Origin: Sphyrna mokarran
Lineage: Eukaryota
DNA length: 64,000 nt
Assembly (NCBI GenBank): GCA_024679065.1
Contig: JAGIQG010000001.1
Span: 117,986,001-118,050,000, forward strand
Direction: 5' to 3'
Shown here: piece after piece, positions 9,001 to 12,000 of the stretch
Layout: every line of letters begins with the position of its first letter
Position numbering within the stretch: position 1 is the stretch's first letter
Program-made: the position numbers

Positions 9001-12000
9001 CTACATCTCCTGTTCTATATATCTCCTGTTCTAGAGTATTGCAAAAATATCCTGAAGGGCAATTTTCTTTTTTAGTGCCTGCTGAAATTAATTAAACAAT
9101 TGTTCTATAAAGGGAAGGTAACTTGCCAGATTACCTGCCAGAAAGTGAAGCAAATTACATTTCCTACTTTTAGATTGGATTTCATTCCAATGAAAAAAAA
9201 GGATTACATTTGGCCAAAGGTAATGTTTCTGAGGGTTTACAGTACTGTTTTAAGCTTTTACAACACATGATTTGTAAAACACTAATTCAGCTGATGATCA
9301 GCCAAGTTACATTGTTCTGACTGCCACATAATTGTTTTTTTGACAGCCATTAGTGTCCACTCTGACATAACAAGCCACTTCATTTGTCAATTCATGCTTA
9401 TACTTTTATTAAATTCAAATTTTAATGTGAAAGGATGTTTTCTCATCTAATATAGAAATGTTATTTCAGACACTAAGAAATATGATTGCATCTAATAATT
9501 CTGAGAAATGGGGACGTTTGGAGAAAATATTTTTGATTGACAGTGCATTCTGATTTGATAGAGGCAAATATTATCAAGAGATTTATACTTCGATTTTCTT
9601 TTTTTAGGAAGAAGTTTTCTTACTTCAATGGGGATTATTCCCTTGTGTTGAATTTCCCTGCTAGGCAAATCCAGTGAGATCACCATATTAGCATTCCCAG
9701 ACATCCTACAAGAGGAAACAGCGGAGTCTGCAACTTAAAGTACTTTCAGGATCCCTTAACTTCAGGGAACCATACTAGCCTTGGGGAATGCAAAATGCAT
9801 GAACTTCTGGGTCTAGACAGCTAGCTCTCAAGCCTATTTGAAGTCAACTTGACCACTGGATGTAGAGCAAATGATTTCTGCGATATCACTGCAAACGACT
9901 ATCAGTAAAATTCTTTTTAAAAATTCATATACATTCCAATACCACTAACAATTTACTCTCTGAATTTGAATGGGTTTCAAGAAGGTACTGGTGTAGGAAG
10001 GGCTGAGTCAGAGGAGGCCCAAGAATTCTTTTGCTTTGCCAAACCCCAAGGAATCTCAGGAAGAATTATCATCTTACTTTTATTTACCATAGCCTTCTCT
10101 GGCCACTCTTCCACAGCCCACTGAGATTTTCTGGTGGTCTTGGGTGAGTGGCTCCATCAATTCGTCGTTAATATCACACCGTCAAACCGAAGGCAACATT
10201 CCCCTTACAGTATCCAAATACATCTTACAAAGAATTTTGAACCCAGTGTCCAATAGATCAGCTTACATCAGATTCAACAGTCAAATATACGTATCACATA
10301 TTTAGTCAAAATATCTAAAATAATCAAATCACAATCAATAATTTGTGCCATTGAAAGGCAAGTTTTTCTATTGTTTCTCTTTCGAATGAATTTTTTTGTT
10401 GACTCAACATTTGGGTTGAGATTACTTGTAATATTTCCACGTTACATTTACCTCGAGTGACTCAAGTACAAATGTGGTCTTAAAGGGTTAAGCATATGCA
10501 TTGCTCTTTCAAGTCTAAAGATAGCAAGTTTAGCAATGAAGATGTAAGGGAAAACTGAAGCTTTTCTCCCAGAGTTCTGTATTACCTTAATTTGGCAGCT
10601 AAATAAGTCAGAGCAACAAAACCTACGTGGTTGGATTCGATATACAGTCTATGTGACATGACAAAAGGTTATAAATGAATTCAAAAATCATAATGTAATC
10701 TTTTTCAAAGGATGTTACTAAAGCTTTTATAAAAAAAGTCATTATCTATAAAATAACATTCATAATTTCTATTAATCACAATATATTGCAATATCTAATC
10801 CTTCACAGGCAAGCAGTACCTCAGAGACAGCAGTAATAGCACAAACAGTAAAATAGGTGATCACAGTAAACAGTAAATAGATGTGACTGCTAGCAAAATG
10901 CAAAGAAAATCATATTTAGAATTTTTATAACAAATACCTGAAAGAGGAAAACAAATTGTGTCTCTGCAGCAAGAATGTATTCCTAAAAATATACACCCAG
11001 CAACCCACTGGCAGAGGAAGAAAAATATAAAATCATAATCAAGCTTCGACTCGCCTCCCCTATCCCACCCCTATTTTGTCAATCAGTGGTAGATTCCAGC
11101 TGAATAATCCAGGCTGCTGAATCTCAGGCCAGCAGTCACAAGAAAAAAGAAGCTAGTAATGGCAGCTGTTTCAGCATTATTATGGTCTCGTAGACCTAGC
11201 TTGGCGTGAGCAGCTTAGCAGTGAACGTAGGAAAACACCAAAGGAAAGCAATGCAGCCGTGAAAGCAGTTTCAGTGCACCAGATGAATGTCTCAAACCCC
11301 AGCCCCAAGCAGAATTCCATATCGGCAAGATTGGATGAAAGACACTGCCACAGCATTGTGACATTACTCTTGTGTCAAGGACCACCTACCTGTTTACACC
11401 ACTATGTGGAAGCATATGAAAAGGAGAGGGAAAACAGTAACAATGAAGGGAGAAAGACAGAACAATGACAAAACTATGCTCTCTTTCACACCCACACATG
11501 CAGATGTACACAGAACAATATGTTAACACACAGACAAAAACTTCTAATGTAACATCAGAGTCATTCTTTTTATCACATTTATCAGAACAATTACAAGAAT
11601 TAGAAGGACATGGACTTATTTTATAAAGGAGCTCACAGTATTGCGTCAGAAATGAACAACATTTTACTGACATATTGATAACAGTACATACACAATGAAT
11701 GAAGAAGAAAAAAATTAGATGTTTAATTAGTTAAAGACATGATTAGCAACTGGAACGAGTAATATCCATTGCCTCTTAATTTTACATGCAGCTTGGCTCC
11801 ATGCCAAATGCAAAACAGGACACTTCTTACAATTCTCTTCCCAATAAATGTTAAAGCAATTAATTATTTTGAGTTGAGTATTTTCTCCACGTATTTATTT
11901 TTTCCACATTATAATAGGCAAATTTCTTCGAATACTTATCAATGCCACTGAAATCTGGCCCAGAAATGGCTAAGAGTGACTTTCCTTTCACTTTTTCACC

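What the first reader, a model, noticed from the sequence alone, without database searches (positions are those of the whole stretch)
11390..11480. Strong candidate 12-nt neural-type microexon in the ANK2 linker
Seen in sequence (minus strand): ...ttgtcattgttctgtctttctcccttcattgttactgttttccctctccttttcatatgcttccacatag TGGTGTAAACAG gtaggt. It has a long AG-free pyrimidine tract, a UGC about 10 nt before the AG and a strong donor. It is phase 2-2 in a phase-2 intron, giving GRSD-SGVN-S. Established: UGC motifs near the 3'SS mark SRRM3/4-dependent microexons, and the ankyrin-B/G linker autoinhibits the ANK-repeat groove. From recollection, mammalian ANK2 has a 12-nt insert at this junction with a different peptide. 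Inference: an ancient microexon with conserved position but a diverged sequence.
Basis: partly seen in the sequence, partly recalled or inferred. Interest (0 to 1): 0.72.

Follow-up and report, generated by a model that had tools for sequence, protein, structure and literature searches.

The report
Shark copy of ANK2 12-base microexon

Summary
The sequence is as described: on the minus strand ...catag|TGGTGTAAACAG|gtaggt, exon 11401-11390. It lies in the 23,844-nt phase-2 intron between a 145-nt and a 103-nt ANK2 linker exon. It adds Ser-Gly-Val-Asn in frame.

By crude splice-signal criteria, set after seeing the candidate, it is the only one of 11,049 AG-N(3-27)-GT pairs in the window that passes.

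Decisive evidence: database ANK2 proteins of other cartilaginous fishes carry a 4-residue insert at exactly this junction.
- SGVN: Scyliorhinus canicula, Rhincodon typus, Chiloscyllium plagiosum.
- SAVN: Amblyraja radiata, Heptranchias perlo.
- SAVH: Callorhinchus milii.
- Tetrapods carry STMP, STVP or SAMP.

Sznajder et al. 2025 (PMC12148930) describe the mammalian exon as a highly conserved 12-nt ANK2 microexon. It is promoted by MBNL and coupled to a 15-nt alternative acceptor. The window keeps that acceptor at 1388.

The cis signals fit the SRRM3/4 microexon architecture, and YGCY motifs are enriched downstream. Neural use in this species is inferred, not shown.

Verdict: observation confirmed, interpretation supported, already known, low interest. 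In passing I found a second, 63-nt cassette exon at 10648-10586.

The parts
11390..11401 (-). The 12-nt ANK2 microexon TGGTGTAAACAG. It is phase 2-2 and adds Ser-Gly-Val-Asn.
   Evidence: Sequence and frame. The identical peptide SGVN sits at this junction in Scyliorhinus canicula, Rhincodon typus and Chiloscyllium plagiosum ankyrin-2 proteins.
11402..11471 (-). 3' splice-site region. It has a 70-nt AG-free, 81% pyrimidine tract, CTCTCC at -27..-22, TGC at -13..-11, YTNAY branch-point candidates with the A at -43 and -16, and the acceptor cacatAG.
   Evidence: The layout matches the UCUC...UGC enhancer described for SRRM3/4 microexons (bioRxiv 10.1101/2024.09.17.613571, passages read).
11384..11389 (-). 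5' splice site GTAGGT. With the exon end CAG it matches 8 of 9 positions of the consensus.
11203..11355 (-). Cluster of 8 YGCY motifs (7 of them TGCY) at +35 to +184 of the downstream intron. This is a candidate MBNL-binding enhancer.
   Evidence: One search gives the positions. One search counts 8 in 200 nt against an intron mean of 1.87; 0.6% of intron windows reach 8. The exact mammalian arrangement is absent.
25249..25393 (-). Upstream 145-nt constitutive exon. It encodes the 'B-linker' / AI-b autoinhibitory segment and ends ...GGRSD plus the codon bases AG.
   Evidence: PDB 5y4e (AnkB AI-b fused to repeats R8-14) aligns to residues 7-46 of the exon's translation.
1301..1403 (-). Downstream 103-nt exon encoding (S)LRSFSSDRS.... 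A second in-frame acceptor at 1388 drops the 15 nt that encode SLRSF.
   Evidence: Both acceptor forms occur in database isoforms.
1435..1483 (-). Four TGCT motifs at -80..-32 upstream of the 1403 acceptor. This is a candidate MBNL silencer of the upstream acceptor (inference).
   Evidence: One search gives the positions. One search counts 4 in 90 nt against a mean of 0.85; 1.9% of intron windows reach 4.
10586..10648 (-). Second cassette exon of 63 nt, phase 2-2, encoding R-LYIESNHVGFVALTYLAAKL-(S). It starts 741 nt after the end of the microexon.
   Evidence: tblastn with the insert region of Carcharodon ankyrin-2b X4 gives 69.6% identity over 23 aa. Splice sites cacatag|A...AAG|gtaata and the open frame are. 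Heptranchias carries the same insert after SAVN.

Best explanation
The 12 bases at 11401-11390 (minus strand) are the shark ortholog of the vertebrate ANK2 (ankyrin-B) 12-nt alternative microexon.

When included, the exon is spliced between the 145-nt 'B-linker' exon and the 103-nt exon. It inserts Ser-Gly-Val-Asn directly after ...GGRSD. That point is one residue past the AI-b segment, which folds back onto ANK repeats 8-14.

Inclusion probably depends on neuronal SRRM3/4, acting through the UCUC...UGC element just upstream of the acceptor. It is probably also promoted by MBNL proteins bound to the YGCY cluster in the downstream intron, as shown for the mammalian exon.

It can be combined with either acceptor of the next exon. 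Acceptor 1403 keeps SLRSF and its phospho-serine. Acceptor 1388 drops it.

The likely effect is a small change in spacing and phospho-regulation at the C-terminal edge of the autoinhibitory linker. That would tune how readily ankyrin-B's membrane-binding groove opens.

Shown: the sequence, the frame, the gene identity, and orthology by position, length and peptide with annotated isoforms. Inferred: actual use in this species, neural specificity, the regulators and the protein-level effect.
For: - Sequence and frame.
- ANK2 identity and exon map.
- It is the only pair of 11,049 in the window that passes the crude splice criteria, and the best 12-nt candidate among 976 in-frame pairs in the intron.
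- 8 of 38 chondrichthyan ANK2 database representatives, from 6 species, carry a 4-aa insert at exactly this junction. Four of them (3 species) carry SGVN, identical to this exon's peptide.
- Callorhinchus has forms with the insert (P0133) and without it (P0242-P0244), so the exon is alternative there.
- 8 of 201 other named representatives (frog, turtle, snake, bat, whale, macaque) carry S[TA][MV]P at the same place.
- PMC12148930 (sections 8 and 11) reports a highly conserved 12-nt Ank2 microexon coupled to a 15-nt alternative acceptor. MBNL2 CLIP sites about 55 nt downstream promote its inclusion.
- PMC13174390 (passages) calls the Ank2 microexon SRRM4-dependent.
- The cis layout fits: UGC at -13, CTCTCC at -27, a strong donor, and YGCY enrichment downstream.
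- AI-b is residues 865-896 and ends ...GGRS (PMC5779224; PDB 5y4e alignment).
Against: - No RNA evidence for this species could be consulted.
- The closest protein to the window's exon, Mustelus asterias ankyrin-2b X4, lacks the insert. So do 29 of 38 chondrichthyan representatives.
- The supporting shark isoforms are computed gene models, not cloned cDNAs.
- The exact mammalian MBNL site arrangement TGCT(N)3TGCT(N)13-18TGCY is absent from the window (0 matches). Only a looser YGCY cluster is present.
- The three whole codons differ from tetrapods: G-V-N against T-M-P.
- He et al. 2013 (PMC3663501) report that truncating residues 891-960 left autoinhibition intact (their data not shown). The insert site may therefore matter little for inhibition itself.
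- 6 of 8 chondrichthyan models pair the microexon with the upstream acceptor. The mammalian coupling to the downstream acceptor may not hold in sharks.
Confidence: 0.85

Rival explanations
1. The exon is real and orthologous, but it is not a neuron-specific SRRM3/4 microexon in sharks. It is either used broadly or controlled mainly by MBNL, for example also in muscle and heart.
For: In S. canicula and Amblyraja the insert sits in representatives of large isoform clusters (52 and 45 members), which hints at frequent inclusion in the models. Its splice signals are as strong as those of the flanking constitutive exons. YGCY motifs are enriched. MBNL regulation is the mechanism shown experimentally in mammals.
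Against: A UGC at -13 behind a UCUC tract, with a 70-nt AG-free zone, is the SRRM3/4 layout. The mammalian ortholog is listed as SRRM4-dependent. Isoforms without the insert exist in Callorhinchus and in most other species.
Confidence: 0.1
2. This is a chance pseudo-exon. An AG and a GT lie 12 nt apart with good flanks, but the pair is not spliced in this species.
For: No transcript data for the species. The nearest relative's listed isoform (Mustelus X4) lacks it. With a slightly looser donor threshold, three such pairs occur in 128 kb of both strands.
Against: It has the same intron, length, phase and peptide (SGVN) as the annotated exon of three other shark species. A pair this good, exactly 12 nt long and in this intron, is expected by chance about 0.015 times. 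That figure is my arithmetic: 2 other pairs per 128 kb x 23.8 kb x 1/25 lengths.
Confidence: 0.03
3. The exon is used, but its peptide is nearly neutral. What selection keeps is the splice choice it is tied to, namely keeping or dropping the 15 nt that encode LRSF with the phospho-serine. The inserted residues themselves are not what is conserved.
For: Peptide content drifts (SGVN, SAVN, SAVH, SAMP, STMP, STVP) while length and position are fixed. In tetrapods 7 of 8 insert-bearing representatives drop LRSF. PMC12148930 stresses the loss of the S901 site. Residues 891-960 were dispensable for inhibition in PMC3663501.
Against: 6 of 8 chondrichthyan insert-bearing models keep SLRSF, so the coupling is not universal. 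The first Ser and a hydrophobic middle residue are kept in all 16 insert-bearing proteins, which suggests some constraint on the peptide.
Confidence: 0.25

Closest known systems
Mammalian ANK2/Ank2 12-nt microexon (Sznajder et al. 2025, PMC12148930; listed as SRRM4-dependent in PMC13174390)
   Same: Same gene, same intron (after ...GGRSD), same 12-nt length and same phase. The same 15-nt alternative acceptor follows in the next exon. Both have a UGC upstream and YGCY motifs downstream.
   Different: The peptide is S-G-V-N instead of S-T-M/I-P. The exact TGCT(N)3TGCT(N)13-18TGCY site is absent. Shark gene models mostly keep SLRSF together with the insert. No expression data were seen for sharks.
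Annotated ankyrin-2b isoforms of Scyliorhinus canicula (X26, X7), Rhincodon typus and Chiloscyllium plagiosum (X9)
   Same: The identical SGVN insert at the identical junction.
   Different: These are protein models of other species. Their DNA could not be compared with the window, because no vertebrate genome collection was available.
Ank3 microexon E35a (27 nt; PMC12713133)
   Same: A deeply conserved, neuron-regulated microexon in an ankyrin paralog, lying in a disordered linker.
   Different: Different gene and position (between the UPA and death domains), different length, and an experimentally shown function.

Membership tests
ANK2 (ankyrin-B) gene | Linker and ANK-repeat exons are most similar to ankyrin-2 rather than to ankyrin-1 or ankyrin-3. 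| tested here: met
   All named hits among the best 120 for the 145-nt exon are ankyrin-2 / ankyrin-2b or unnamed-function proteins. The same holds for the linker region. Horn-shark ankyrin-2b maps to 9 exons on the minus strand at 81-100% identity. No shark ANK1 or ANK3 was compared directly.
Vertebrate ANK2 12-nt microexon (orthology) | Same intron, 12 nt, phase 2-2, lying between ...GGRSD and SLRSF/SSDRS. | tested here: met
   and PMC12148930 section 8.
Vertebrate ANK2 12-nt microexon (orthology) | Nucleotide-level alignment of the exon and flanking intron with other species. | not testable with these tools
   No vertebrate genome collection was on hand. Only protein isoforms could be compared.
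SRRM3/4-dependent neural microexon | Length 3-27 nt and frame-preserving. | tested here: met
   12 nt with no stop.
SRRM3/4-dependent neural microexon | A UGC between the pyrimidine tract / branch point and the AG, a UCUC-type tract upstream, a long branch point-to-AG distance, and a strong 5' splice site. | tested here: met
   TGC at -13, CTCTCC at -27, 70-nt AG-free zone, YTNAY with the A at -43, donor 8/9. The criteria come from passages of bioRxiv 10.1101/2024.09.17.613571. The branch point is a motif match only.
SRRM3/4-dependent neural microexon | Neural-specific inclusion that depends on SRRM3/4. | not testable with these tools
   No RNA-seq data or assay were available. This is inferred from the mammalian ortholog.
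MBNL-activated exon | A cluster of YGCY motifs in the downstream intron. | tested here: met
   8 YGCY in +1..+200 against an intron mean of 1.87, with 0.6% of windows reaching 8. 3 in +30..+89, with 2.5% of windows reaching 3.
MBNL-activated exon | The conserved mammalian site TGCT(N)3TGCT(N)13-18TGCT/C about 55 nt downstream. | tested here: not met
   0 matches in the window on either strand.

The most novel reading that the evidence does not exclude
Cartilaginous fishes keep a three-part splice module at the C-terminal edge of the ankyrin-B autoinhibitory segment AI-b. Its parts are the 12-nt microexon, a 63-nt cassette exon and the 15-nt alternative acceptor. The 63-nt exon lies at window 10648-10586, is also modelled in Carcharodon and Heptranchias, and encodes a hydrophobic 21-residue stretch. 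It appeared in 0 of the 201 non-chondrichthyan representatives I tabulated, so it may be an undescribed regulator of linker autoinhibition, either lineage-specific or ancestral and later lost. YGCY clusters at both the microexon and the upstream acceptor would let MBNL switch the whole module at once.
Probability: 0.25. Interest if true: 0.4.

Novelty: already known. Interest (0 to 1): 0.2.

Why it matters
ANK2 is a high-confidence autism-risk gene, and this microexon is mis-spliced in myotonic dystrophy and autism cortex (PMC12148930).

Exon position, 12-nt length, phase, the coupled 15-nt acceptor and UGC/YGCY-type signals are all present in a shark. This dates the module to before the split of cartilaginous and bony vertebrates.

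What has been kept is the length and the position next to the AI-b autoinhibitory segment. The peptide has not been kept. This argues for a spacing or phospho-switch role.

It adds nothing categorically new. For this genome, the practical value is a correct annotation of a 12-nt exon, and of a 63-nt exon, which gene finders easily miss.

Tried and rejected
- Paralog doubt. The downstream exon's ...DSAMIEEL... reminded me (recollection only) of ankyrin-G. The database hits are all ankyrin-2, so I dropped this.
- Tetrapod-like microexon elsewhere in the intron. I looked for one encoding S-[TA]-[MVI]-P. None of the 12-nt candidates listed encodes it.
- Rival candidate at 18667-18650 (18 nt, SFLCSSS). 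It has a GAG acceptor and matches no insert seen in any database isoform. Rejected.
- The listing of cluster members, to see isoforms hidden inside 90% clusters (for example the 14 members behind Mustelus X4).
- Irimia et al. 2014 (PMC4390143) is not held. I did not read its statements on microexon conservation.
- Literature search for 'ank2b' plus 'microexon' returned 0 papers. The search for microexon + shark + conserved + neural listed 12 of 14 papers by title and abstract start, and none of the listings names ANK2. I therefore found no paper in the held library on the shark ANK2 microexon.
- The ANK2 isoform pair imaged in PMC13759335 concerns a longer exon that adds a ZU5 domain, not this microexon.
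- PDB search with the 103-nt exon's peptide found nothing.
- Rfam scan of 9500-12500 found no match. A self-comparison of 11101-11700 found no repeat.
- An RBFOX-type TGCATG occurs once, at -101. A single hexamer is not evidence.
- No structure prediction or complex prediction was run. They would not bear on whether the exon is used.
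Full report
**1. The observation**

On the minus strand the window reads ...ttttcatatgcttccacatag|TGGTGTAAACAG|gtaggtgg. The 12-nt exon is 11401..11390.

- The nearest upstream AG is 70 nt away.
- Pyrimidines make up 77% of -25..-4 and 81% of -70..-4.
- A TGC sits at -13..-11, and CTCTCC at -27..-22.
- The donor CAG|GTAGGT matches 8 of 9 consensus positions. The two flanking constitutive exons match 7 of 9.

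The window contains no N.

**2. Context**

The upstream exon, 25393..25249 (145 nt), translates to [47 protein letters not shown] and ends with two codon bases, AG. The downstream exon, 1403..1301 (103 nt), encodes (S)LRSFSSDRSNTPSHGPYQRDSAMIEELITATSSQ. It has a second in-frame acceptor at 1388, 15 nt further in.

The intron between them is 23,844 nt.

A horn-shark ankyrin-2b protein maps onto the minus strand as nine exons, from ANK repeats at 57032 down to 736.

**3. Is it more than chance?**

Of 5,997 (minus) plus 5,052 (plus) AG-N(3..27)-GT pairs in the window, this is the only one with donor >=8/9, pyrimidines >=0.75 and an AG-free zone >=30 nt. With donor >=7/9, three pairs pass. The thresholds were chosen after seeing the candidate, so this is a rough guide.

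Within the intron, 976 frame-preserving, stop-free pairs of 3-51 nt exist. This one is the best of length 12. The only comparable rival is an 18-nt pair at 18667-18650 with a poor GAG acceptor.

The surrounding 600 nt are unique in the window and match no Rfam family.

**4. What it is**

I searched exon by exon. The evidence at the junction comes from natural database proteins.

The 145-nt exon's peptide finds shark 'ankyrin-2b' first (96% identity) and then tetrapod ankyrin-2. Searches with the linker region of the horn-shark protein and of the S. canicula protein brought in 38 chondrichthyan representatives.

Eight of the 38, from six species, carry a 4-residue insert exactly between ...G(E/G)RSD and SLRSF/SSDRS:
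- SGVN: Scyliorhinus canicula X26 and X7, Rhincodon typus, and Chiloscyllium plagiosum X9. The last is joined to the downstream acceptor, SGVN-SSDRS.
- SAVN: Amblyraja radiata X30 and X7, and Heptranchias perlo.
- SAVH: Callorhinchus milii XP_007895202.

SGVN is exactly what the window's 12 nt encode. Of the other 30 representatives, 29 have no insert and one (Carcharodon) has only a longer insert.

Callorhinchus has both forms: P0133 with the insert and P0242-P0244 without it. The exon is therefore alternative there.

The protein closest to the window's own exon, Mustelus asterias X4 (identical ...[10 protein letters not shown]), lacks the insert.

Among 201 other named representatives:
- 8 carry the insert: STMP in whale, turtle, macaque and python, STVP in a bat, and SAMP in a frog.
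- 2 have no insert and use the downstream acceptor.
- 190 read SL(R/Q)SF.
- 1 is truncated.

These counts understate inclusion. The queries lacked the insert, and the database shows only one protein per 90% cluster.

**5. Literature**

Sznajder et al. 2025 (PMC12148930; sections 8 and 11 read) describe a 'highly conserved Ank2 miE (12 nt)'. Their findings:
- Inclusion goes with the proximal acceptor and gives Thr-Ile-Pro in mouse or Thr-Met-Pro in human.
- Skipping goes with the 15-nt-longer form, which encodes LRSF with the S901 phosphorylation site.
- MBNL2 CLIP tags cover a conserved TGCT(N)3TGCT(N)13-18TGCT/C about 55 nt downstream of the donor.
- That element confers MBNL-dependent inclusion in a minigene.

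A 2026 preprint (PMC13174390, passages read) lists the Ank2 microexon among well-characterised SRRM4-dependent ones.

**6. Regulatory signals in the shark**

The upstream layout is a CU tract, then a UGC 9-11 nt before the AG, within a long AG-free zone and paired with a strong donor. This matches the SRRM3/4 microexon architecture described in bioRxiv 10.1101/2024.09.17.613571 (passages read).

Downstream, YGCY motifs occur at +35, +63, +79, +123, +140, +170, +178 and +184. That is 8 in 200 nt against an intron mean of 1.87, and 0.6% of intron windows reach 8. The exact mammalian arrangement is not present (0 matches).

Four TGCT motifs also lie at -80..-32 upstream of the 1403 acceptor; 1.9% of windows reach 4. 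By inference, MBNL bound there could disfavour the upstream acceptor while promoting the microexon. That would reproduce the coupling seen in mammals.

Six of eight chondrichthyan models nevertheless keep SLRSF together with the insert. The coupling is therefore uncertain in sharks.

**7. Protein context**

Chen et al. 2017 (PMC5779224, passages and Table 2 read) map the ankyrin-B autoinhibitory segments AI-c (828-852) and AI-b (865-896). Met884 and Tyr886 of AI-b are essential for binding ANK repeats 8-14.

PDB 5y4e, the AI-b fusion, aligns to the window's exon up to ...GGRS. Taking its Met as Met884 puts the last aligned Ser at 896. This is my arithmetic. AI-b therefore ends one residue before the microexon junction.

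The shark exon keeps the Met and Tyr (...DNMMYRG...).

He et al. 2013 (PMC3663501, passages read) place the critical residues at 848-853, 878-883 and 885-890, all in this single exon. They also state that truncating 891-960 left inhibition intact (their data not shown).

The insert thus sits next to the inhibitory segment, not within it. A role in spacing or in phospho-control of the flank is the most likely effect. This is inference.

**8. Verdict**

The feature is the shark ortholog of a known, conserved ANK2 microexon that is already present in gene models of related species.

It is not novel. Its modest interest lies in showing that length and position, rather than peptide, have been conserved since before the split of cartilaginous and bony vertebrates.

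I found no paper in the held library on the shark exon. The search 'ank2b' + 'microexon' returned 0 papers, and the listing names none. Irimia et al. 2014 could not be read.

**9. Seen in passing**

A second cassette exon of 63 nt lies at 10648..10586, starting 741 nt after the end of the microexon. Its splice sites are cacatag|A...AAG|gtaata, its frame is open, and it encodes R-LYIESNHVGFVALTYLAAKL.

It matches the insert of Carcharodon ankyrin-2b X4 and of the Heptranchias protein. In both of those it is joined to the downstream acceptor.

**10. Left open**

- Transcript evidence for this species.
- DNA-level comparison with other vertebrates, since no such collection was available.
- Bony fishes and jawless vertebrates, which were not sampled beyond one sturgeon fragment without the insert.

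Noticed in passing
window 10586-10648 (minus strand): A second alternative exon of 63 nt in the same intron, starting 741 nt after the end of the microexon. It is phase 2-2 and encodes R-LYIESNHVGFVALTYLAAKL, a hydrophobic stretch. It matches inserts in the Carcharodon carcharias ankyrin-2b X4 and Heptranchias perlo ankyrin-2-like proteins. It was seen in none of the 201 non-chondrichthyan representatives tabulated.
   Followed up: partly
window 1388-1403 (minus strand): A 15-nt tandem alternative acceptor (cag|CCTGCGATCCTTCAG|TTCAG...) that keeps or drops SLRSF. The same pair of forms is seen in tetrapod and shark isoforms, and it is the acceptor choice coupled to the microexon in mammals.
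   Followed up: yes
window 1435-1483 (minus strand): Four TGCT motifs, including TGCTGCTGC, lie just upstream of the 1403 acceptor. Only 1.9% of intron windows are this rich. They could be an MBNL site that biases the acceptor choice.
   Followed up: partly
window 11496-11501 (minus strand, about -101 from the microexon): A single TGCATG (RBFOX-type hexamer) upstream of the microexon. One occurrence is not distinguishable from chance.
   Followed up: no
window 25249-25393 versus database proteins: The window's exon reads ...[10 protein letters not shown], like Mustelus asterias. All other chondrichthyan representatives read ...G(I/L)GRLGERSD. The downstream exon differs from Mustelus by one residue (ITATSSQ against ITAASSQ). 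The source is therefore a shark close to Mustelus, but not identical to it at this exon.
   Followed up: partly
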